Shown here: positions 1 to 17,434 of the stretch, one piece after another
How positions within the stretch are numbered: the first letter of the stretch is position 1
Layout: each line of letters opens with the position of its first letter
IMG/VR virus record: IMGVR_UViG_3300045988_103705
Source: a virus
Strand: one strand, 5' to 3'
Length of the DNA stretch: 17,566 nt
Notes under the pieces: model-generated
Told to the model about the DNA's origin: nothing
Databases searched by the model: none
What the model saw: the letters and a program-made list of their open reading frames with translations, nothing else
Made by a program: the position numbers and the translations under genes

Positions 1-1035
1 ATCGAATAAAACATACTTAACTTCATGCTCACGGATATTCTTTTTTATCTTATTTTCTACATCTTGCAAAGAAAAATCCGGCAATTCTTCAATCCAAATC
101 GGACTTCTTTTAATAATTTCCGCGGCTTTGAGAACTCGATCCTTTTCTCCATCAAAATATTGGCCATTCAAGATATGCTCTTCATTTACATCAGAAAGAA
201 ATGCTAACATCATAGTTTGCACTTCTCCTTTATCTTGCTCTGTCGCAATAAACAAAGTTGGTTGAGAAGTTCCGTTTTTAATCCAACCAAATTGATCATG
301 ATAGATCTCATTACACGCAAAATTACAAGCATCCGCAATCATTGATCTAGTTTTTCCAGTTCCTGTAGCAGCTGACCGCAAATAAAATTTTCTCAATCTT
401 GCGCCTCTTGTTACTGTATTAATCAATGGGCCATATAGAGGAATACCGACTTCTGGATGTTGTTCTAAATCACTGATTAAATCGTCGATTCCGTCTCCGG
501 CTTGATACCCCAATCCTAAATCATCTTCAATATATTTACTCTTGATTTCATCTATTTTTACATCAATAGCATGAGCTATTTCAACTAAACTTGTATTATC
601 TAACCAATCTTCTTGCATTTGTCTCTTTTTAGTATCAAGAATATTATTTGGGTCGTAAAGATAGGTTACATCAAGTCCAAAGCTATTATATGCCCTTAAT
701 AGAGTAAATTTTTTTAATCTATTATAGTAGTAATTAAAAGTATCCTATCGAGCGTTTTGTGATGCTTCAAGAAGATAATCTACACCTTTATTTTGTTTAA
801 ATATAGCATCAAATTTGGGTCTATTCGCTAAATAATCTATAATTGCATCAATATTGACTTGACTGCCTGTTAGATGAATATTATAGATACTCCCAAAGAT
901 AATTTTGTGAAAATCCTCTTGAAAATCATCTTCATGAATTATATATTTATCTGCATCATCGAGAATAGAGGCATTATTAAATACACACCCAATTATTTGA
1001 GTAATTGCTGCTGTATCTACATAGTTACTCTTCAT
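1..1035 (-). CDS. dnaB: DnaB-like replicative DNA helicase, C-terminal ~100 aa lie beyond window start. Two in-frame TAG codons (745-747, 577-579) read as sense.
   Basis: One continuous minus-strand frame from 1035 to 1 apart from the two TAGs. N-terminal DnaB-like domain (MKSNYVDTAAITQIIG...IFGSIY...IDAIIDYL). Linker LGLGYQAGDGIDDL. P-loop region GIPLYGPLINTVTRGARLRKFYLRSAATGTGKTRSM, then ...KYVLFD. RBS GAGGAGG lies 6 nt before the second ATG (1033-1035); the ORF-track M at 1050 is the first ATG. Confidence 0.8.
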
Positions 1036-1558
1036 GTGTTTCCTCCTCATTTAAGAAAGTAAATAGCTTTCGTATATGTTTCATTGGTTGTCGCTGAGGA
1101 GGCTCTATATGAACTTCTCTTACAGGCAAAATAAATTCTTTTATATCTACCCGCTCATTTCTTTCTCTTGCTTCCCACAATGCTCTCCAATATAGATATG
1201 CTTCATCATAAACAAAAGGAACAATACCAATTCCACCATTGGCCTTTTCAATAGAATTTCCTTTTATCTCAAAAAAATATTTTAATGTTTTATATATTCC
1301 TGTATATGAATAATTTCTATCTTTTTTAAAGGTTTCTATTTGTTTTTTAATTTTTGGGGAGATACAATTAATTCCAAATAAATCCTTTATATATTTTTCT
1401 AATAATTCTTTATCTTTTTCTTCTTGAGTTTTATTTTCTTCTGCCGTTTGCGCACAAGTTTTATGAGCGTAACGTCTTGAATTTGGTTTAACGTATGGGG
1501 TGGTTGATGCATCAAATATTTCTCCACAGTAAAAACATTTTACCATGTGTTTCGCCAT
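1025..1558 (-). CDS. Zinc-ribbon protein (CxxC...HxxC) immediately upstream of and overlapping dnaB. Possible helicase loader or replication accessory protein.
   Basis: Intact 177-aa ORF. N-terminal CFYCGEIF...RRYAHKTC motif. RBS AAAGGAG 8 nt upstream of the ATG. Overlaps the dnaB start by about 10 nt. Confidence 0.55.
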   Translation of the reverse strand: MAKHMVKCFYCGEIFDASTTPYVKPNSRRYAHKTCAQTAEENKTQEEKDKELLEKYIKDLFGINCISPKIKKQIETFKKDRNYSYTGIYKTLKYFFEIKGNSIEKANGGIGIVPFVYDEAYLYWRALWEARERNERVDIKEFILPVREVHIEPPQRQPMKHIRKLFTFLNEEETHEE

Positions 1559-1593
1559 ACATTACGCTCCTTTCTTTATAACCTTATATAAAT

Positions 1594-1622
1594 ATAATAT
1601 CATATTTTAGATAAAAAATCAA
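1594..1622 (-). promoter_or_regulatory. Sigma-70-like promoter for the Zn-ribbon/dnaB transcription unit: TTGATT-N17-TATTAT with extended -10 TG (minus-strand reading).
   Basis: Minus strand reads TTGATT TTTTATCTAAAATATGA TATTAT. The -35 is the reverse complement of 1617-1622 and the -10 that of 1594-1599. The same architecture recurs at five other sites. Confidence 0.55.
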
Positions 1623-1656
1623 GGAAGGAGAAATATCCTTGATACTCTCCTTCCTT
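1621..1656 (-). terminator. Hairpin terminator downstream of the AAA_24 gene (11-bp stem, aaggaaggaga...tctccttcctt) followed on the minus strand by GATTTTTTAT. Overlaps the next promoter's -35.
   Basis: Perfect inverted repeat 1621-1631 / 1646-1656 with a T-run after it in the direction of transcription. Confidence 0.55.
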
Positions 1657-1660
1657 TCAT

Positions 1661-2641
1661 TTAGGTCTTAATTAAGTCTTCTAATTCATGAATAATTAGA
1701 TCCAATTGTTCAGACTGTTCGGGAGTGCAGTCTCCAACTTTTTTCCCTTTGCCTAAAAATTTATCAACAATAGCAGTAATTTTAACTGCATTGGATTGAT
1801 TTTCTGACATAAGATTTCCAACTAAATCATTAAATCTTGTCATTAGATAATCAAAATCATAAGTAACATCTTCTGTGACAACTTGTGTTGCCTCATCTGT
1901 AATATACTTGCCACCAGTTTCTTCTGCTTGCTTATCAATAGCATCAGAAATTGCTTTTACAAGATTATCATATGTAAATTCAATAGATTCTGGAACATAC
2001 TTAAATCTTGAACCGGCAACATATTGCGGAGTTCCGCGCATAAAGAGACGAGTTTCTGTGCCTCCAGATTCATTGGTTACAGAACGAGAATAACCAATAA
2101 TATCACAAGTTCTCTCACAAATTAATCTACCTCTATTGTCAAGAGTTGGTACAATTTGAGAAGCGACATCTTCTCCTTTTGCATTTTTTTCTGTCTTTAC
2201 TTTGGCATGAGAAATCAAAATAAGACCATAATTAAGTTGTAGAATTTTACGAATTGCTTCATCAAATTCTGTACTAACAAGTGCATATCCCTTTCCATAA
2301 GGAATATCACCAATAGTATCAACAGCCTCGCGTCCGCAAATAAACTTCTCACAATAGCCATATGCAATATCTGCTGTATCAATTACAATAGTTTGGAATT
2401 TTTCTTGAACTTCTGGAGTTTTTAATTCACTAAAAAGTTTCTTAAATTCACCCCAACTATTGATTGGTTGAGCATATACTCCTGGCAAGGCATTATAACC
2501 TTTCTCAAAAGCAAGTAGTAGCGCTTTTGGAAACTTACTAGCAATAGTTGTTTTGCCAGACTTTGGATCCCCATAGAAAAATACTGAATAACCTCTTAAA
2601 TCTCTTGATACTTCGTGTGGTTTAATATCTAATAAACTCAT
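1661..2641 (-). CDS. AAA_24 / Sak4-like RecA-family phage nucleotide-binding ATPase.
   Basis: Intact 326-aa ORF. Walker A GDPKSGKTT followed by LLLAFEKG, typical of the AAA_24 family. RBS GAAGGAG upstream. Confidence 0.75.
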   Translation of the reverse strand: MSLLDIKPHEVSRDLRGYSVFFYGDPKSGKTTIASKFPKALLLAFEKGYNALPGVYAQPINSWGEFKKLFSELKTPEVQEKFQTIVIDTADIAYGYCEKFICGREAVDTIGDIPYGKGYALVSTEFDEAIRKILQLNYGLILISHAKVKTEKNAKGEDVASQIVPTLDNRGRLICERTCDIIGYSRSVTNESGGTETRLFMRGTPQYVAGSRFKYVPESIEFTYDNLVKAISDAIDKQAEETGGKYITDEATQVVTEDVTYDFDYLMTRFNDLVGNLMSENQSNAVKITAIVDKFLGKGKKVGDCTPEQSEQLDLIIHELEDLIKT

Positions 2642-2673
2642 TTATTAATCGCTCCTTCTAAAATTAATTGGGA

Positions 2674-2700
2674 AAGAAAGGGAAAAAATCTCCCTTTCTT
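2674..2700 (-). terminator. 10-bp-stem hairpin (aagaaaggga / tccctttctt) overlapping the stop of the upstream gene. Possible attenuator or weak terminator between the SSB-like and AAA_24 genes.
   Basis: Perfect inverted repeat with a 7-nt loop. T-rich tract follows on the minus strand. Confidence 0.4.
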
Positions 2701-3655
2701 AGAATTTATATTCTCCCTTTGCAGGAGCGGAAGTAGAAGTACCGCTAAGTGCGTTACCCTTTGTAGCCTGATACTCGTCTTGACGCTTTTTAATTTCTGC
2801 AAGAGTAACTTCGCGAGCCGCCATCTTTTCATTAAGTTCAGAAACAAGAAGAGTTTCTTCGCTATCCCATGCATAAGTTTCAGGCTGTGCCCAGTTAATC
2901 ACAAAATCTCGCTGAGAGTTACGAACCTCTTTTACCTTTGTATCACCAAAAGCACTTTCTTCTTCAATTTTGCGGATTACTGTCTTAGAAATTTGAACAC
3001 CTTGTACTCTAGTAAATACTGGAGAACTAGAAGTTGCTCCAAGATTCTCAAAATAATCAAGAGCCTTTTCTGGTGCATAAGGAGTATATACATTAAATTC
3101 AACAGGAAGCAGAGATCCACGGAAATCAAAAATGCACCCTTTTACAGTTACCTTTTCAGGTAAATCGCGCTCTTCATCAGCTTCTGTACGAATTACATTA
3201 GTAATAACCATATCAGTATCAAATGTTGCACGATTCTTTTCTTCCGCGAGCTCCTGAGTCACATGGACAAACCCACCCTCATTTCTTTTTACACTTACAA
3301 GAGGGTGACCAGTAGTATTATTATCATACCACTCATTTAGACCAATAGCAGAATCAATACGGAGCTTTCCTGCGTTTTCTTTACCATGCTCCATTACAGA
3401 GCCAATCTTTCCCTCAATAATATTCAAAAGAACTCCATAGGTAGAATTTGCTTTTCCGTTTTTAGTAGTCTCAGTTACATAACTAAAATGAACATCAACT
3501 ACATTGAGCATTTCATCATCGGTTGCAATTCTCAAAATACCGTTAATAAACTCTGTTCCAGGATTTTTAGAATTTTCTCCAGAAACTTTCTTTTCGAGCT
3601 TATGCTCATAGACATACCCTTCAATATGAGTAGCATTAATCATTTTCTTTTTCAT
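2699..3655 (-). CDS. Hypothetical protein, possible ssDNA-binding or recombination-associated protein. The C-terminus ends in an aromatic residue (..KGEYKF) and the gene sits next to the Sak4-like ATPase.
   Basis: Intact 318-aa ORF with RBS GAGGAGAG. Function is inferred from genomic context only; no diagnostic motif recognised. Confidence 0.35.
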   Translation of the reverse strand: MKKKMINATHIEGYVYEHKLEKKVSGENSKNPGTEFINGILRIATDDEMLNVVDVHFSYVTETTKNGKANSTYGVLLNIIEGKIGSVMEHGKENAGKLRIDSAIGLNEWYDNNTTGHPLVSVKRNEGGFVHVTQELAEEKNRATFDTDMVITNVIRTEADEERDLPEKVTVKGCIFDFRGSLLPVEFNVYTPYAPEKALDYFENLGATSSSPVFTRVQGVQISKTVIRKIEEESAFGDTKVKEVRNSQRDFVINWAQPETYAWDSEETLLVSELNEKMAAREVTLAEIKKRQDEYQATKGNALSGTSTSAPAKGEYKF

Positions 3656-4059: not shown

Positions 4060-4088
4060 ATAATAACATATAAAATAAAGATTGTCAA
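4060..4088 (-). promoter_or_regulatory. Promoter TTGACA-N17-TATTAT driving the wHTH regulator gene. The -35 overlaps the thyX stop codon.
   Basis: Minus strand reads TTGACA ATCTTTATTTTATATGT TATTAT, followed by AAAGAGGAAAA and the ATG. Confidence 0.55.
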
Positions 4089-4711
4089 TCAAGAGCAATA
4101 TCATCAAAGATTACAGGGATTTTTTCCTTGACTTTATTAAGTGCAATAATTGCTACTTCTCTTATTTGCGGATGGGCGGCTGAAGAGCAGCGAAGCTTGA
4201 AGAAATGCCGCCACTCCCGCAAATTCGCAGTCATAACTACCTCTGTTTTTAAACTATTAGGTAGAACTGCTCTTGCTTCCTAAGGAGTGCATCCGGCAGA
4301 GAGCATATTAAAATATTCTTCTTCCGCATTTTGACAAGCATTATACCAATGATTGTAGGCTGGACTGCTCTTGATTAAGAAACAAGGTTCAATAACAGTA
4401 ATTTCATTTCCGAACCCGTCTTTTGAATAATTGCAATATCTTGTAGATTCTTGACAATAGGCAGCCAATCTATGACGAACAATTTCATGGCTAACACCTC
4501 TATCGCAAATAAATTTAAGAGTAAAAGAGCAATGCTCGAGGACTGCTTCATGTCCTCTTTTAATAATATTCTAAACAAATTTTACAGCACTATCTTCTGT
4601 AATCTTATCTTCAGATTTATAACAAACTCTACCGCACTGTTCAATTCGTTTAAGAATTATCTTACCGTCAATAGGTGTAATCAGTTCAACATCTGGCTTA
4701 ATAATTTTCAT
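4085..4711 (-). CDS. thyX: Flavin-dependent thymidylate synthase ThyX with two in-frame TAG codons (4571-4573 and 4280-4282). Stop is TGA.
   Basis: One frame gives MKIIKPDVELITP...KFV[TAG]NIIKRGHEAVLEHCSFTLKF...HEIVRHRLAAYCQESTRY (the RHR-x7-S-x-R ThyX motif) ...SAGCTP[TAG]EARAVLPNSLKTEVVMTANLREWRHFFKLRCSSAAHPQIREVA. The ORF-track pieces 4375..4578 and 4280..4468 are fragments of this gene. RBS AGGAATAAT upstream. Confidence 0.85.
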
Positions 4712-4988: not shown

Positions 4989-5892
4989 TAAGACCCTCCG
5001 CGAGTGGTATTTAAACCAAAATCTTTCGTTTTATAAAACTCAATCCAATAAGTTTCTCTCTCATTTAAATTTTCCCTTGAAACTTCTTCTAAAATCTCAA
5101 AGGTAAAACTCCAGATTTCTACATGGTAGAATATAGTTTATTGGTTGCTTTTCCGTAAGTTAAAGCAGATTTAATATGTTGTCTAAAACGTTCTTTTATA
5201 TCAACTGACTATCCTATATAGGATTTCCCAGTGGTCAAATCAGTTATCCTATAAATTCCACAATATTTAATTGCTTTTGGGAATAACCGAGCTGTTAATA
5301 TATCATAAGCTGGTTTATAATACACTTCCCATATTAACTTATCTATGCTTTCTTTTTTGACAAATCTAGGTTGCAACTCACGCAATAATGTAATATCATT
5401 TATATCAATTTCATCAAGAGCTAAACGATAGTAATCTTGATTAGAGTCAATCTCTTCCTATCTTTGTTGAGCCTAAATATAAGCAAGTTGTTTAGCTTGT
5501 AAATCCGCTAATTTACTGGATTCGATAGAAATTTTATTTGATAAATCTTGACTTTTAGCATTAAAAGTCATAGTAAGCTCATTTTCTTTTTCTTCATAGG
5601 ATTTTAAAAGCGCGGAAATGCGAATCTAGTATGCCTCATCAGCTTGCTTTTGTGCATTTTCCCGCATTTCTTCCTAAGATTTTACTAGAGAAGAAAGAAT
5701 TTCATTTTCAGAGTATATATTTTCTTTTATATTAGATAATACTTCTCTATTATGTTTTATTTCCTATTCTATCTCTGAGTTTTTCCTCTAATTATTTATA
5801 TTAACTTCAATTATTTGATGCTCTTGTTTCTTGAGATAATAGATATAAATTATTAACCCGATTATAGTAATTAATAATAACCCTATAATCAT
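4988..5892 (-). CDS. Membrane-anchored coiled-coil protein with a C-terminal GIY-YIG nuclease domain. Eight in-frame TAG codons plus an apparent 1-nt deletion near 5105-5108, so it may be a frameshifted pseudogene or carry a sequencing error.
   Basis: ATG at 5890-5892. Protein is MIIGLLLITIIGLIIYIYYL (TM helix), then an EKQ-rich coiled coil containing TAGs, then CGIYRITDLTTGKSYIG[TAG]SVDIKERFRQHIK...NKLYSTM[TAG]KSGV, and after a frame change FTFEILEEVSRENLNERETYWIEFYKTKDFGLNTTRGGS. The span is 905 nt, not a multiple of 3. Confidence 0.55.
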
Positions 5893-12744: not shown

Positions 12745-12757
12745 ACTACAAACAAAT

Positions 12758-12793
12758 AAAGGCTTAATGAGTATTTAACTCATTAAGCCTTTA
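12758..12793 (-). terminator. Intrinsic terminator (15-bp perfect stem aaaggcttaatgagt / actcattaagccttt) ending the lysis cassette.
   Basis: Perfect inverted repeat, followed on the minus strand by ATTTGTTTGTAGTTTGATTTTT. Confidence 0.7.
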
Positions 12794-12795
12794 TA

Positions 12796-13131
12796 TTAAA
12801 TAGGACCATCGAGATCAATGGGAATATCATTAGAGGCTGAAAAATCTTCTGCGGGGATGTTATATGCAGAATTGAATTCAGTTTCTTTTAAAGCTAGGTC
12901 ATAAGTAATGCCGCCCTTTTTGTGATCTGATTTAGCCATTGCTAAATAAAAAGAACAAACTACTCCGTGGGCGCTCCATGGTAGACCAACAAGAGCACTA
13001 ATCCATGGAAGGGTTCCTAAATATCCCATATAAACACACATAAATGCCAAAAGGATACCTGACACAGTCACGACCCATAATAACATACGAATATCATTTA
13101 TAAGTTTTTTGGAAAATTCTAATTTTTTCAT
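12796..13131 (-). CDS. Holin-like protein: two TM segments, charged C-terminus, ATGA overlap with the endolysin stop.
   Basis: 111 aa. Hydrophobic helices LLWVVTVSGILLAFMCVYMGYL and ISALVGLPWSAHGVVCSFYLAMA. Lies immediately downstream of the endolysin. Confidence 0.5.
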   Translation of the reverse strand: MKKLEFSKKLINDIRMLLWVVTVSGILLAFMCVYMGYLGTLPWISALVGLPWSAHGVVCSFYLAMAKSDHKKGGITYDLALKETEFNSAYNIPAEDFSASNDIPIDLDGPI

Positions 13132-14537
13132 TTTAAACCCAGCTTTTCAGCCAATCTTCTTAACATAGTTACAGTTTCTAATCTAGTGCAGAATTTATTT
13201 GGCATCATTCTTCCAGCACTGTCTCCAGCCATAATCCCATTTGCTTTAGCCCATTCAAGATTATCGGTGCCCCAAGTTTCTTTTTCATTAGCTTTATTAG
13301 TAAGCCAAGTATTCATAAGTTCAGCGAATTTCTCGTCAGTCATATCTTCATCATCCTCCTAGATATTTGACATTAAATTATAAACATCTGTTCTTGCGGT
13401 TTCCATGCTTTTTCCAAATTTTGGAAACCAATGGTTTACATCTGCATGATTAGATCCTAACCCTAACTTGTGACTATCAGCATGACATAAAATAGTTGGA
13501 ACGGTGATACCATTTAAAGTAGTGGTTCCCAATGGATTTATGTTATACATTTTACATAAATAAGCAGTAATTTGACAAGCCTCTTCATAAATTTTGTTAA
13601 AATAATTTGCATCATTTAATCCATCTTCGCAAATTTCAAACTGAATCCATCCATTATTACAAGAACCTTTAGACCCAGAACCGCATCCCCAAGGACGATA
13701 ATTCCATGGCATCGTCTATACTGTTGTTACCGTTCCATCAGCTAATTTACCAATCCAACAGTTTAATCCAGCTTGAATAGATATATGATTCCAGTCATTC
13801 TTGCTAGTATTTTTTCCTAATTTATTTATTAAACTGGTATAGTTAGGATCATTATCGCTTGGCTGTACGTATCTTTTTAAATTAGGATTATTTGCACCAG
13901 TACTATGCCATAAGATTCCTTTGACTTGCATGGTGCGTGTTTGTTTATAGCAAGTGCTATTTGTCATCATACATTGAAGTGGTTTATTGCTATCGCTATA
14001 TTTCATTTTATTACCTCCTTCAATTACATTTGAAATGTTAGCAAATTTATTATAATACTATTGACCATAATTAGCCCTCTTTTGTTGCATAGAAAAACTC
14101 TAGTCTGAAGGTCGTTCAAACTAGAGTAATACCGCGGTAGAAGCTTCTGTGACAGAAGTAGCAGAAATCAAAATTTTAACTAAACTAGAAAAACTTGTAA
14201 TTAATTCCTAATATAAAAAATCTAATTGAGTATTTAAATCTCCAATGGATTTACCTCGACTTTGACAGAACTAAAGCAAATTTTGTTTTCTGCTCCAAAA
14301 TGTCCATTGAGCCAATCCATACCCCGCTCCATCTTTTACAAAGTTTTTGTATCTTCCGTCATCAACTGCGGAAGTATATTCTGTATCGGTCATTTTTAAT
14401 TTTTTTTCATATGTGTTCTATAAGTTAATAGAATTAAGTTCACTCTCGGCATAAAGATTGCCCATTAAACCGGCAATTCCGCAATCACTAAAACCTTTGC
14501 CTTTAAAGTATTTCCAAATAACTTGGGCATTAGTCAT
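13128..14537 (-). CDS. Modular endolysin: phage-tail-lysozyme-like domain (GIAGLMGNLYAESELN...QLDFLY...FERP), Amidase_2/PGRP N-acetylmuramoyl-L-alanine amidase, and SLH cell-wall-binding domain. Contains 8 in-frame TAG codons.
   Basis: A single frame runs from ATG 14535-14537 to TGA 13128-13130. Its only interruptions are TAGs at 14418-14420, 14271-14273, 14208-14210, 14121-14123, 14100-14102, 14058-14060, 13716-13718 and 13359-13361. ORF-track fragments 13716..14006, 13359..13712 and 13128..13343 are in-frame pieces of it. Amidase motifs are ILWHSTGANNP and NNGWIQFEICED; SLH motif is WAKANGIMAGDSAGRMMPNKFCTRLETVTMLRRL. An internal SD GAAGGAGGT lies 7 nt before the ATG at 14004-14006. Confidence 0.8.
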
Positions 14538-14539
14538 TT

Positions 14540-15394
14540 TTATTTTTTTGTAATGAAAGAGCTATATCCAGCGGATTTTAATTTATCTTTTAGTCTTTCT
14601 GCATTTAATTTCACAGAGAAAGCGCCTAATTGAACTTTATAAAAAACTCCTACTTTCTTGACATATCCGCTAAATCCTTTCTCTTCCAATTCCTTTAACA
14701 TATTCTCTGCATTGGTTTTAGATAGAAATGCTCCTACTTGAACTCTGTAAAGAACTACCTCTTGTTCTTTCTTAAAATATACACACATTACATTATCAAC
14801 TGGTCTTGCATAAATTTGAGAAGTTTTTCTTTTCCCATCTATTAGTAATCTAGTAGATCCGCCTCCATCTAAATTAATAGCATATTCTACTTTCAATTCA
14901 AGAAAAATTTGCTATAGGGCAGCATAAGCAAGACCTGGAGAATCTACGGTTACAATATAATAATTATTTTTATTCCATCCAATACAAGTCCTGCGGGCTT
15001 TATGATCTAATTCTTTTCCATCTGTTATAACTATCTTTTTGCTATCTACAATTAATGCAGGATAAGCTGCAATAAAATCTCTGGCGGTTTGTAATCTTTT
15101 TAATGTTGTATATATAAGTGTTTTATTGCCGCTAATTGCAACCCCATGGCGAAAATCAGACTAAATAACAGTTCCTTCGTCTTTATAACTAAAGCAGGTA
15201 TTGCCATTGTTCATAGCAAAGAACCCTCCATTAGTAACAATATCTGGTTTAGTAGTCTGTCTTTTATAATAAACATCTGGAGTTTCCGTCGGTTGATTAC
15301 ATAAGGCAAAGTCAATTTTTTCAATGTCTACGAAGGGAATTGTTACAATTTGAACATAAGAATAGAGACTATGTTTTTTAATGCTATATCCCAT
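14540..15394 (-). CDS. NAGPA (phosphodiester glycosidase-like) domain protein with two C-terminal SPOR domains. Interrupted by in-frame TAGs at 15161-15163 and 14912-14914 and an in-frame TGA at 14897-14899.
   Basis: ORFs 15161..15394 (..NGGFF..) and 14540..14896 (AINLDGGGST..., then two SPOR repeats YRVQVGAF.. and YKVQLGAF..) share one frame. The intervening frame encodes ..IVTVDSPGLAYAAL[TAG]QIFL[TGA]LKVEYAINLDGGGS, which fits the conserved NAGPA domain core without gaps. RBS AAAGGAGATAAAGT upstream. Confidence 0.6.
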
Positions 15395-15416: not shown

Positions 15417-15444
15417 AAACCCAATCTCTTTAGAGATTGGGTTT
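15417..15444 (-). terminator. Intrinsic terminator (13-bp perfect stem aaacccaatctct / gagattgggttt) between phoH and the lysis genes. No promoter follows it.
   Basis: Perfect inverted repeat followed on the minus strand by TTTTATTATTG, then directly the RBS and ATG of the NAGPA gene. Confidence 0.65.
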
Positions 15445-16972: not shown

Positions 16973-17434
16973 TTAATTATTATTGCCCTGACGAAATTTT
17001 CTAACTATCGAGAGCGCCTTAGTTTGATTTTTAATGTAAGTTTTTAAGTTAGTTTCTTCTGTTTTTAATGCTTTTTCAAGTGCGGAAATTCGAGCTGAGC
17101 AGCGTCCAATTGCATAATAAAAGTTTCCAGTGGGGTCAACTTCCGCAGGACTTAATCGCTCATATTTTGTTGCCTCTTGATAATAGTCATATCTATATTG
17201 TAATTCTTTGCGAGTTTTTTTCATTTCATATTGCATAGCATTTATTCTTGCTTTTGATAAAGCGATAGTTTTACCTACCTTTTCAGAAAAAAAATCTTTA
17301 TCGCTTTCCGCTAACTTGGCTCGTCCGCTAAAGATTTTTCCATTATAATTAATTCCAACAATACATATGCCAGATTTTTCATTAACTAGCTATGTAATTG
17401 TTGGAGCTTTATATATAGCACTAATAACACTCAT
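16973..17434 (-). CDS. Hypothetical protein (153 aa) with its N-terminus extended through an in-frame TAG at 17390-17392.
   Basis: ATG at 17432-17434 is preceded by RBS AGGAGA and a promoter. The frame runs MSVISAIYKAPTIT[TAG]LVNEKSGICIVGINYNGKIFSGRAKLAESDKDFFSEKVGKTIALSKARINAMQYEMKK... and joins the ORF-track ORF 16973..17236. Confidence 0.5.

What the first reader, a model, noticed from the sequence alone, without database searches (positions are those of the whole stretch)
13990..14025. Strong Shine-Dalgarno (GAAGGAGGT) embedded in the endolysin linker 7 nt before an in-frame ATG: possible internal start giving an Amidase_2-SLH isoform
The linker codons att gaa gga ggt (IEGG) form a near-perfect SD, correctly spaced for the ATG at 14004-14006 (MKYSDSNKP...). 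Initiation there would bypass 6 of the 8 TAGs and produce an amidase-SLH product needing only two readthroughs. Internal-start isoforms are known for some Gram-positive phage endolysins. The SD could also simply be a remnant of domain fusion.
Basis: inference. Interest (0 to 1): 0.5.

Follow-up and report, generated by a model that had tools for sequence, protein, structure and literature searches.

The report
Conserved internal start inside phage endolysin
A phage cell-wall-lysis gene carries a strong, evolutionarily conserved ribosome-binding site and start codon between its two enzyme domains, so it very probably makes a shorter amidase-only enzyme alongside the full-length one; this is a known trick of such genes, seen here in an uncultured gut phage that reads the stop codon TAG as glutamine.

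Summary
On the minus strand, GAAGGAGGT (14021..14013) lies 7 nt before the in-frame ATG 14006..14004. This is codon 178 of a 469-codon TAG=Gln endolysin ORF (14537..13128) with the architecture Phage_lysozyme2 / Amidase_2 / single SLH motif. The heptamer alone is not beyond chance. However, this is the strongest SD before any ATG in the window, stronger than at all 19 gene starts, and it ranks 1 of 476 in-frame positions in its ORF. In relatives sharing 48-98% identity, the Met (MKY) is conserved in every sequence examined while the linker is hypervariable. An SD persists through different linker peptides (EGG, KEE, TGG, QGG, EKGD). The first Gly of linker Gly-Gly is GGA in 17/18 linkers versus 5/59 elsewhere (p=9e-12). 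Stand-alone amidase genes start at this same Met, so the site is a fusion remnant that has been kept. It matches the published "Type I" internal start sites (Ply2638A, Ms6 LysA). A second conserved SD+ATG (13343) before the SLH module suggests a third, 71-aa product. The bypass of 6 of 8 TAGs is correct arithmetic but is not conserved. No protein-level evidence was available here.

The parts
13128..14537 (-). Endolysin ORF, 469 codons plus TGA. It is read with TAG=Gln and has the architecture Phage_lysozyme2 - Amidase_2 - single SLH motif.
   Evidence: More than 100 full-length fused homologues of 443-487 aa at 60-98% identity. Five of the 8 TAGs fall on invariant or near-invariant Gln columns (Q40, Q139, Q146, Q274; TAG at Q299 of WIQFEIC in relatives).
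14535..14537 (-). Start codon of the full-length product. It has no SD (+2.0 kcal/mol) and lies 2 nt after the TAA of the upstream gene (TAAAAATG).
   Evidence: Most relatives have an SD of -9 to -12 at this start.
14043..14531 (-). Phage_lysozyme2 domain (residues 3-165), containing 6 in-frame TAG codons.
   Evidence: E=2e-34; phrog_20388 endolysin; phi29 gp13 lysozyme fold.
14007..14042 (-). Linker 1 (residues 166-177). It is hypervariable in relatives and disordered in the model.
   Evidence: variable length and sequence; 27% pairwise identity; pLDDT<50 at residues 168-176.
14013..14021 (-). Shine-Dalgarno sequence GAAGGAGGT, encoded by the linker codons GAA GGA GGT (E G G).
   Evidence: -13.4 kcal/mol, strongest before any ATG in the window; conserved at nucleotide level in relatives.
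14004..14006 (-). Internal in-frame ATG (Met178). This is the proposed Type I internal translation start and the first residue of the amidase module.
   Evidence: Invariant M-K-Y in 37/37 aligned homologues and in 78 viral loci, one of which uses GTG. Stand-alone amidase genes start here.
13362..14006 (-). Amidase_2 module (residues 178-392), with one TAG at codon 274.
   Evidence: One search gives AmiE/PlyL/PlyG-type amidase folds..
13355..13360 (-). Second SD, AGGAGG, built from the in-frame TAG codon 393 plus GAG plus G (cTAGGAGGat).
   Evidence: -10.2 kcal/mol, third of 380 intragenic ATGs. GAGGAGG is conserved in relatives, with Glu codons GAG 32/34 at positions -5/-4 and GAA 21/21 at -3..-1.
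13341..13343 (-). Second internal in-frame ATG (Met399). This is a candidate Type II start for a 71-aa SLH-only product with no TAG inside it.
   Evidence: Near-invariant M399. Ranks 1-6 of about 470 positions in most relatives. pLDDT<50 at residues 393-398, just before it. ORF 13128..13343 is listed.
13128..13340 (-). Single SLH motif module (residues 400-469 plus stop), with the conserved T451-R452-x-E454 motif.
   Evidence: SLH 23.7 bits; relatives 33 bits. (R452 and E454 invariant). (three helices).
14540..15394 (-). Upstream gene: NAGPA (phosphodiester glycosidase) + SPOR, 284 aa, 2 TAGs, own SD AAGGAGA. Its stop codon abuts the endolysin start.
   Evidence: It is absent at this position in more distant relatives, where PhoH is followed directly by the endolysin.
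12796..13131 (-). Downstream 111-aa hydrophobic ORF overlapping the endolysin stop (ATGA). It is a holin candidate by position only.
   Evidence: No significant family hit. A small ORF occupies the same position in relatives.
14097..14127 (-). Terminator-like hairpin inside the ORF. Its two arms contain TAG codons 139 and 146. It is specific to this lineage and of unknown role.

Best explanation
ATG 14006..14004, with its AAGGAGGT ribosome-binding site, is a conserved in-frame internal translation start between the two catalytic domains of a lysozyme-amidase-SLH endolysin. This is a 'Type I iTSS' in the terminology of Zinsli et al. 2025. Ribosomes that bind there make a 292-aa amidase-SLH isoform alongside the 469-aa full-length enzyme.

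Historically, the site is the original RBS and start codon of a once-separate amidase gene. Fusion turned the intergenic RBS into linker codons: EGG and KEE linkers are in-frame translations of AGGAGG. Selection has since kept the site.

In this particular phage the internal site is likely a major entry point for ribosomes. The full-length start has no SD and depends on coupling to the upstream gene. Six UAG codons must also be suppressed before an upstream ribosome reaches the linker.

Shown here: sequence anatomy, domain boundaries, conservation and codon-level selection. Inferred: that initiation actually occurs, and the relative amounts of the isoforms.
For: (1) Anatomy. An 8-nt perfect anti-SD complement, a 7-nt spacer and an AUG, in a weakly structured A/U-rich context (local MFE -4.2 against an ORF mean of -7.8). 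It is the strongest SD in the window.
(2) Position. It sits exactly at the end of the disordered linker and outside both Pfam domains.
(3) Conservation. M-K-Y is invariant after a hypervariable linker. The SD is -9 kcal/mol or better in 24/32 distinct fused junction sequences and ranks 1 of about 460-870 in-frame positions in 16 of them. This was replicated in prophages and MAGs of Oscillospiraceae and other Clostridia.
(4) Different linker peptides (EGG, KEE, TGG, QGG, SGG, KGG, EKGD) all encode an SD.
(5) Codon-level selection. The first Gly of a linker GG is GGA in 17/18 distinct linkers against 5/59 for GG elsewhere in the same ORFs (Fisher p=9e-12).
(6) The fusion is old. Lysozyme and amidase identities co-vary (r=0.75) down to about 55-60% identity.
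(7) Independent fusions keep it. CHAP-amidase fusions have it. Lysozyme2 fused to unrelated second catalytic domains, in Faecalibacterium phage FP_Lagaffe (M184) and in MT835491 (M186), has the ORF's strongest SD at the junction ATG.
(8) Negative controls. Amidase-first/lysozyme-second proteins have no Met in that linker, and five of the six have no strong SD there. MYRVRKSW-type binding domains have a Met but no SD.
(9) Precedent. Type I iTSSs have been proven for Ply2638A and Ms6 LysA, with a fitness benefit (PMC12203907). About 50% of Gram-positive endolysins have a predicted iTSS (PMC9430671).
Against: No protein, ribosome-profiling or N-terminal data exist for this uncultured phage. Predicted and conserved internal RBS/ATG pairs have failed to give a second polypeptide for LysP008 and Lysc2 (PMC9371310), and Pinto et al. 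estimate some false positives (15% in portal proteins). Two sub-lineages have lost the SD completely while keeping the Met (L083, L084), and six have only weak SDs, so the site is dispensable in some backgrounds. K179 and Y180 are also invariant, so Met178 could be conserved partly for structural reasons. Per-lineage synonymous resampling is only modestly significant (median p about 0.14). Lineages are not phylogenetically independent, and recombination with stand-alone cassettes could renew the site. A terminator-like hairpin 90 nt upstream is unexplained.
Confidence: 0.75

Rival explanations
1. Inert fusion scar. The SD and ATG are merely left over from the fusion of a lysozyme gene with a downstream amidase gene. 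They persist by inertia or because the linker likes Gly/Glu, and they give no meaningful second product.
For: Stand-alone amidase genes start at this very Met with an SD in the intergenic region. Gly-rich linkers are common. The SD is lost in L083/L084 and weak in six other lineages without loss of the gene. Some predicted iTSSs are not used (PMC9371310).
Against: The linker has turned over completely (27% identity, indels) while the SD and its spacing persist. GGA is used in 17/18 linker GG dipeptides but in only 8.5% of GG elsewhere. KEE linkers use the rarer AAG GAG codons. Other inter-domain linkers in the same protein families lack an SD-plus-Met pair. An exposed AAGGAGGT-N7-AUG would be expected to recruit ribosomes in a Bacillota host whether or not that is 'intended' (established knowledge).
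Confidence: 0.15
2. The SD-like element acts on elongating ribosomes, for example as a pause at the domain boundary that aids co-translational folding of the lysozyme domain, and not as an initiation site.
For: It sits exactly at a domain boundary. SD-like motifs inside ORFs have been proposed to pause ribosomes (own knowledge; this is disputed in later literature).
Against: A pause does not need an in-frame ATG at a 5-12 nt spacing, yet the ATG is present in every fused sequence examined. The same SD-ATG is the true start of stand-alone genes. Linkers of the reverse domain order have no Met, and five of six lack a strong SD.
Confidence: 0.05
3. There are two separate genes. TAG at codon 160 is a real stop that ends a lysozyme gene, and the amidase gene starts at 14006. 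On this view the 'fusion' is an artefact of reading TAG as sense.
For: Under the standard code the region breaks into fragments, and ATG 14006 opens a listed ORF. No suppressor tRNA is present in the window.
Against: TAGs sit on invariant Gln columns in both domains, including inside the amidase (Q274) and at WIQFEIC in relatives, so TAG must be read as Gln. The lysozyme2 profile extends to residue 165, past codon 160. Many relatives have zero TAGs and an uninterrupted fused ORF.
Confidence: 0.03

Closest known systems
Ply2638A endolysin of Staphylococcus phage phi2638A (Type I iTSS; Abaev 2013; Zinsli 2025, PMC12203907)
   Same: It has two catalytic domains plus one binding domain in one ORF. 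An in-frame SD+ATG sits in the inter-catalytic-domain linker, and the short isoform is Amidase_2 plus the binding domain. A gene-fusion origin was proposed there, and the data here support that origin.
   Different: The N-terminal domain is M23 peptidase there and Phage_lysozyme2 here. The binding domain is SH3b there and a single SLH motif here. The standard code is used there and TAG=Gln here. In Ply2638A the product, the heterodimer and the fitness effect are experimentally shown; here nothing is shown at protein level.
LysA (Lysin384/Lysin241) of mycobacteriophage Ms6, and LysPollywog and LysJavan488 (PMC3111421, PMC9430671)
   Same: A second endolysin is embedded in frame, starting between two catalytic domains. 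In Ms6 both isoforms are needed for normal lysis timing.
   Different: Different hosts and domains. No recoded stop codons. A single internal start has been described.
Type II iTSS endolysins: Lys170, LysIME-EF1, CTP1L, CD27L, CS74L, LysP7951 (PMC4777826, PMC7098653, PMC9430671)
   Same: The second site found here (SD + ATG 13343 before the binding module) has the same layout. It would give a binding-domain-only chain that could co-assemble with the longer chains.
   Different: Those genes have one catalytic domain and one internal start. Here the Type II-like site co-occurs with a Type I site in one gene. The binding module is a single SLH motif and not an EF1-type or Amidase02_C-type domain. 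Assembly has not been tested here.
LysBT1 of a Brevibacillus thermoruber prophage (amidase + single SLH; PMC12285257)
   Same: It combines an N-acetylmuramoyl-L-alanine amidase with one C-terminal SLH domain. A single SLH trimerises into the three-prong spindle. The TRAE-type motif is present here as T-R-x-E.
   Different: LysBT1 has no lysozyme domain, and the terms 'internal translation' and 'SLH motif' do not occur in the paper's text. Pfam families are shared, but close homology was not tested here.
Lysis genes of TAG-recoded (code 15) gut phages (Borges et al. preprint 10.1101/2021.08.26.457843; PMC9523058)
   Same: In-frame TAG read as Gln is concentrated in lysis genes. In this window there are 8 TAGs in the endolysin and 2 in the NAGPA-SPOR gene, against 0 in the large replication genes.
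   Different: In the search made here (hit list only, papers not read for this point), no title or abstract start mentions an interplay between recoded codons and nested internal starts. Here the three nested reading frames carry 8, 2 and 0 TAGs.

Membership tests
Type I iTSS endolysin (internal start between two catalytic domains) | Two enzymatically active domains plus a cell-wall-binding domain in one ORF | tested here: met
   Phage_lysozyme2 3-165, Amidase_2 202-353, SLH 422-454. Folds confirmed.
Type I iTSS endolysin (internal start between two catalytic domains) | In-frame start codon in the inter-domain linker, outside conserved domains and not near the gene ends (Pinto 2022 filters) | tested here: met
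   Met178 follows the disordered segment 168-176 and lies between the two Pfam domains.
Type I iTSS endolysin (internal start between two catalytic domains) | RBS whose strength is an outlier for that coding sequence | tested here: met
   It ranks 1/476 in the ORF and is stronger than all 19 gene starts. A duplex-energy proxy was used; RBS Calculator was not available.
Type I iTSS endolysin (internal start between two catalytic domains) | Site present at the same relative position in most cluster members | tested here: met
   The ATG is present at this position in every fused sequence examined, and the SD is -9 kcal/mol or better in 24/32 distinct junction sequences. Codon test p=9e-12.
Type I iTSS endolysin (internal start between two catalytic domains) | Two polypeptides actually produced from the gene | not testable with these tools
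   This needs expression with western blot, N-terminal MS or ribosome profiling.
Type II iTSS endolysin (binding-domain-only secondary product) | In-frame SD + start codon in the linker between the last catalytic domain and the binding domain, conserved in relatives | tested here: met
   AGGAGG 13360..13355 and ATG 13343. Ranks 1-6 in most SLH-bearing relatives. GAG/GAA positional codon bias p=3e-13. pLDDT<50 at residues 393-398.
Type II iTSS endolysin (binding-domain-only secondary product) | The binding-domain chain is produced and multimerises with the full-length chain | not testable with these tools
   Only an analogy is available: a single SLH trimerises in LysBT1 (PMC12285257). No multimer prediction or experiment was possible.
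Genetic code 15 (TAG=Gln) phage gene | In-frame TAG codons at positions where homologues have Gln | tested here: met
   TAG at invariant or near-invariant Q40, Q139, Q146 and Q274. TAG at Q299 of WIQFEIC in L087/L088.
Genetic code 15 (TAG=Gln) phage gene | Phage-encoded suppressor tRNA(CUA) | tested here: inconclusive
   No tRNA in the 17.6-kb window. Related contigs are about 148 kb and were not scanned as a whole.
SLH domain (PF00395) | Score above the Pfam gathering threshold; conserved TRAE-like motif | tested here: met
   19.7 bits in the whole protein (below 20.8) but 23.7 bits for the isolated module and 33 bits in relatives. T451 is near-invariant and R452 and E454 are invariant. Only one motif per chain.

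The most novel reading that the evidence does not exclude
One endolysin gene encodes three nested products from three starts: a 469-aa lysozyme-amidase-SLH chain, a 292-aa amidase-SLH chain and a 71-aa SLH-only chain. Each carries one SLH motif, and they co-assemble three at a time into the SLH 'three-prong spindle'. Because the three reading frames contain 8, 2 and 0 UAG codons, the mix of isoforms, and therefore the catalytic make-up of the trimer, would be set by how efficiently the phage suppresses UAG at that moment of infection. That would couple code switching to a graded arming of the lysin. No report of an endolysin with both Type I and Type II internal starts turned up in the literature searches made here.
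Probability: 0.2. Interest if true: 0.75.

Novelty: new member of a known kind. Interest (0 to 1): 0.45.

Why it matters
Internal starts in endolysin genes are known, but why inter-catalytic-domain (Type I) starts persist is an open question. Zinsli et al. 2025 state that 'limited data is available' for the gene-fusion theory. This family supplies that data in one comparative series. It contains stand-alone amidase genes that start at the Met, fusions to two different N-terminal enzymes that keep the RBS as linker codons, codon-level evidence of maintenance, and a few lineages that lost it. It also affects annotation and enzyme engineering: the linker sequence is constrained by an RBS, and recombinant expression would give mixtures of products. 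Finally, it flags Faecalibacterium phage FP_Lagaffe, which is cultured, as a tractable relative for experiments. If the second start is also used, this would be a three-isoform lysin whose stoichiometry depends on stop-codon suppression.

Tried and rejected
- tRNA and Rfam scans of the window found nothing. My first suspicion, that 14010-14540 was a non-coding structured RNA or an intron, was dropped once TAG=Gln reading showed a complete lysozyme2 domain.
- blastn of the lysis region against GenBank phages gave no match.
- Motif frequency alone is not significant.
- Sigma-70-like promoter hits are at chance level (16 against 14.1 expected), and none is placed to give a separate amidase transcript.
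- Per-lineage synonymous-codon resampling has low power (median p 0.14 at site 1 and 0.11 at site 2). It was replaced by the pooled positional codon tests.
- The idea that TAGs are concentrated upstream of the internal start was rejected. TAG accounts for 6/14 against 2/9 Gln codons (p=0.40), and relatives show no consistent split.
- The idea that any linker, or any Met that begins a domain, carries an SD was rejected by the controls.
- The 'two separate genes' reading was rejected.
It was rerun on the 98%-identical P0002.
- The phAss-1 paper (PMC10607447) gave no information on this endolysin.
Full report
**What is in the window.** All long ORFs are on the minus strand. The window is 32.5% G+C. 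If only TAA and TGA are treated as stops, several broken ORFs join up. One of them is a 469-codon ORF (14537..13128) with 8 in-frame TAGs. Translated with TAG=Gln, it has three Pfam hits:
- Phage_lysozyme2, residues 3-165, E=2e-34.
- Amidase_2, residues 202-353, E=2e-11.
- A single SLH motif, residues 422-454. It scores 19.7 bits in the whole protein and 23.7 bits as an isolated module.

PHROGs calls both halves endolysin. TAG=Gln is well supported. TAG codons 40, 139, 146 and 274 fall on invariant or near-invariant Gln columns of the family alignment, and relatives even place TAG at the invariant Gln of WIQFEIC. No tRNA or Rfam family is present in the window.

The gene sits in a small lysis cassette:
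- Upstream is a NAGPA+SPOR gene (15394..14540, 2 TAGs).
- Then comes the endolysin.
- Downstream is an overlapping 111-aa hydrophobic ORF (13131..12796), a holin candidate by position only.
- The cassette is bracketed by terminator-like hairpins at 15444..15417 and 12794..12756.

**The observation.** It is exactly as described. Codons 172-178 are ATT GAA GGA GGT AAT AAA ATG. GAAGGAGGT occupies 14021..14013, and 7 nt separate GGAGG from ATG 14006..14004. Six TAGs lie upstream and two downstream.

The heptamer AAGGAGG occurs once in the window against 1.9 expected, so its mere presence is not significant. Its placement is:
- Duplex energy to the anti-SD ACCUCCUUU is -13.4 kcal/mol.
- That is the best of 380 intragenic ATGs on the coding strand.
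- It is better than every one of the 19 gene starts (median -6.2, best -10.0).
- It ranks 1 of 476 in-frame positions in its own ORF.
- Local RNA structure is weak: -4.2 kcal/mol for positions -30..+30, against an ORF mean of -7.8.
- An AlphaFold2 model of a 98%-identical relative has pLDDT<50 for residues 168-176, so Met178 is the first residue after the disordered linker. The folds on either side match the phi29 gp13 lysozyme and the AmiE/PlyL/PlyG amidases.

**Relatives.** A protein search returned more than 7,000 homologues. The top 120 are all full-length fusions of 442-487 aa at 60-98% identity, several on contigs of about 145-149 kb. In a 37-sequence alignment, M178-K179-Y180 is invariant and directly follows a linker that varies in length and sequence. 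Mean pairwise identity is 27% in the linker against 68% for the lysozyme domain and 73% for the amidase domain. Lysozyme and amidase identities co-vary (r=0.75), which indicates long co-inheritance as one gene.

DNA for 79 viral loci, 8 metagenome contigs and 80 bacterial-genome loci gave three results.

First, stand-alone amidase genes start exactly at this Met (MKY...). They have a stop codon a few codons upstream and an SD in the intergenic region. So the internal ATG is homologous to a genuine start codon.

Second, among 32 distinct lysozyme-amidase junction sequences in the viral and metagenome set:
- 24 have an SD of -9 kcal/mol or better at 5-12 nt from the ATG.
- In 16 of them it is the strongest SD-like site of the whole ORF.
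- Six are weak.
- Two have none (L083, L084).

The pattern is replicated in the genome set. One example is L091, which is 77% identical, lies on a 148,971-bp contig binned with an Oscillospiraceae MAG, and ranks 1/507.

Third, the SD is written in different amino acids: EGG (gaaggaggt), KEE (aaggaggaa), QGG, TGG, SGG, KGG and EKGD (gagaaaggagat). The linker peptide is, in effect, an in-frame translation of the RBS.

**Is it selected, or only a Gly-rich linker?**
- In 18 distinct linker peptides that contain Gly-Gly, the first Gly codon is GGA in 17, which creates GGAGG. For Gly-Gly elsewhere in the same ORFs it is GGA in 5 of 59 (Fisher p=9e-12).
- KEE linkers use AAG GAG, which are not the commoner AAA and GAA codons.
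- Per-lineage synonymous resampling is weaker (median p=0.14).
- Negative control 1: proteins with the reverse order (amidase first, lysozyme2 second) have no Met in their inter-domain linker. Five of the six have no strong SD there either; the sixth, L063, has -9.3 kcal/mol at rank 5.
- Negative control 2: binding domains of the MYRVRKSW type begin with Met, or with Leu, but have no SD (about 0 kcal/mol, ranks 400-550).
- Independent fusions show the same feature. CHAP-amidase genes keep SD+ATG. Lysozyme2 fused to unrelated second catalytic domains, in Faecalibacterium phage FP_Lagaffe (M184, TQGGKTM) and in MT835491 (M186), has the ORF's strongest SD precisely at the junction ATG.

**A second site.** ATG 13343..13341 (Met399, near-invariant) opens a 71-codon frame that covers only the SLH module. 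It is preceded by cTAGGAGGat, that is AGGAGG with an 11-nt spacer (-10.2 kcal/mol, third best intragenic ATG in the window). Here the recoded TAG codon 393 supplies part of the SD.
- In most SLH-bearing relatives the acidic linker reads GAG GAG GAx GAx GAx ATG, and the site ranks 1-6 of about 470 positions. It is weak only in L087 and L088 (-5.6 kcal/mol, ranks 36 and 32).
- It is the top or a top-three site in the two lineages that lost site 1.
- Glu codons at positions -5/-4 are GAG in 32/34 cases, and at -3..-1 they are GAA in 21/21 (p=3e-13).
- Residues 393-398 are the other pLDDT<50 segment.
- This has the layout of a 'Type II' iTSS, which gives a binding-domain-only product.
- A single SLH motif must trimerise to form the three-prong spindle, as shown for the amidase-SLH endolysin LysBT1 (PMC12285257). 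Extra SLH-only chains therefore have an obvious possible use. This last step is inference.

**Mechanism proposed.** The gene most likely yields at least two proteins, the 469-aa full-length chain and a 292-aa amidase-SLH chain initiated at 14006. A 71-aa SLH chain is probable as well.

In this lineage the full-length start has no SD (+2.0 kcal/mol) and lies 2 nt after the stop of the NAGPA-SPOR gene (TAAAAATG). Most relatives have a good SD at that start. More distant relatives have PhoH followed directly by the endolysin, so the NAGPA-SPOR gene appears to have replaced the endolysin leader. Full-length synthesis therefore probably depends on translational coupling and on suppressing 8 UAGs, whereas the internal site recruits ribosomes directly (inference).

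Relatives have 5/5, 3/3, 9/5, 3/1 or 0/0 TAGs before/after the ATG. TAG is also not enriched among Gln codons upstream (p=0.40). The internal start predates recoding, because many standard-code relatives have it.

**Comparison with what is known.** Zinsli et al. 2025 (PMC12203907) define two types. Type I iTSSs lie between two catalytic domains (Ply2638A, Ms6 LysA). Type II iTSSs lie before the binding domain (Lys170, LysIME-EF1, CTP1L). Pinto et al. 2022 (PMC9430671) predict an iTSS in about 50% of Gram-positive endolysins and confirmed four. The site at 14006 meets every sequence-level criterion of a Type I iTSS. Production of the protein could not be tested. Predicted sites can fail: LysP008 and Lysc2 gave one polypeptide (PMC9371310). 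Searches found no report of one endolysin gene with both types of start, but absence from these searches is weak evidence.

**Verdict.** Because the mechanism is already known, this is a new member of a known kind. Three points add interest:
- The clear fusion-then-retention history.
- The probable second internal start.
- The interplay with TAG recoding.

**Unexplained.** A 13-bp terminator-like hairpin lies inside the ORF at 14127..14097 (about -19 kcal/mol). Its arms are formed by TAG codons 139 and 146, and it is present only in relatives of 94% identity or more.

Noticed in passing
window 13341-13361 (minus strand): A second conserved internal SD+ATG (Met399) lies before the SLH module and would give a 71-aa SLH-only product. 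In this lineage the SD AGGAGG is partly made of the recoded TAG codon 393, where relatives have GAG.
   Followed up: yes
window 14097-14127 (minus strand): A terminator-like hairpin (13 bp plus TTTTCT, about -19 kcal/mol) lies inside the lysozyme-coding part. Its arms contain the in-frame TAG codons 139 and 146. It is conserved only in L004 and L048 (94% identity or more) and is absent in L091 and beyond. Its role is unknown.
   Followed up: partly
window 14535-14545 (minus strand): The full-length endolysin start has no SD and sits 2 nt after the TAA of the NAGPA-SPOR gene (TAAAAATG). More distant relatives have PhoH followed directly by an endolysin with its own SD, so the NAGPA-SPOR gene looks like an insertion that replaced the leader.
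   Followed up: partly
window 5065-5892 (minus strand): A 275-codon ORF carries 9 in-frame TAGs, the densest in the window. It has a hydrophobic N-terminus and only the first 34 positions of a GIY-YIG profile, and may be degenerate or unusual.
   Followed up: no
L002 (Faecalibacterium phage FP_Lagaffe MG711461, endolysin at locus 1480-3063): This cultured phage's 527-aa lysozyme2-amidase-SPOR endolysin has its strongest in-ORF SD (-12.5 kcal/mol) exactly before Met184 at the inter-domain junction. It would be a tractable system for testing this class of internal start.
   Followed up: partly
L063, L066, L071, L077, L080, L081: The same amidase and lysozyme2 modules occur in the reverse order (amidase first). 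There the inter-domain linker has no Met, and no strong SD in five of the six loci.
   Followed up: partly
L083, L084 (metagenome contigs encoding P0048, P0093): This sub-lineage has lost the first internal SD entirely (linkers IVNNN and IADSN) but keeps Met178 and a top-ranked second SD. L083 has a strong SD at the full-length start.
   Followed up: partly
window 4085-4711, 16973-17434 and 1-1050 (minus strand): A few non-lysis ORFs also carry one or two in-frame TAGs, while the large topoisomerase/gyrase-like, ligase-like and PhoH ORFs carry none. This is consistent with uneven use of the recoded codon across the genome.
   Followed up: no
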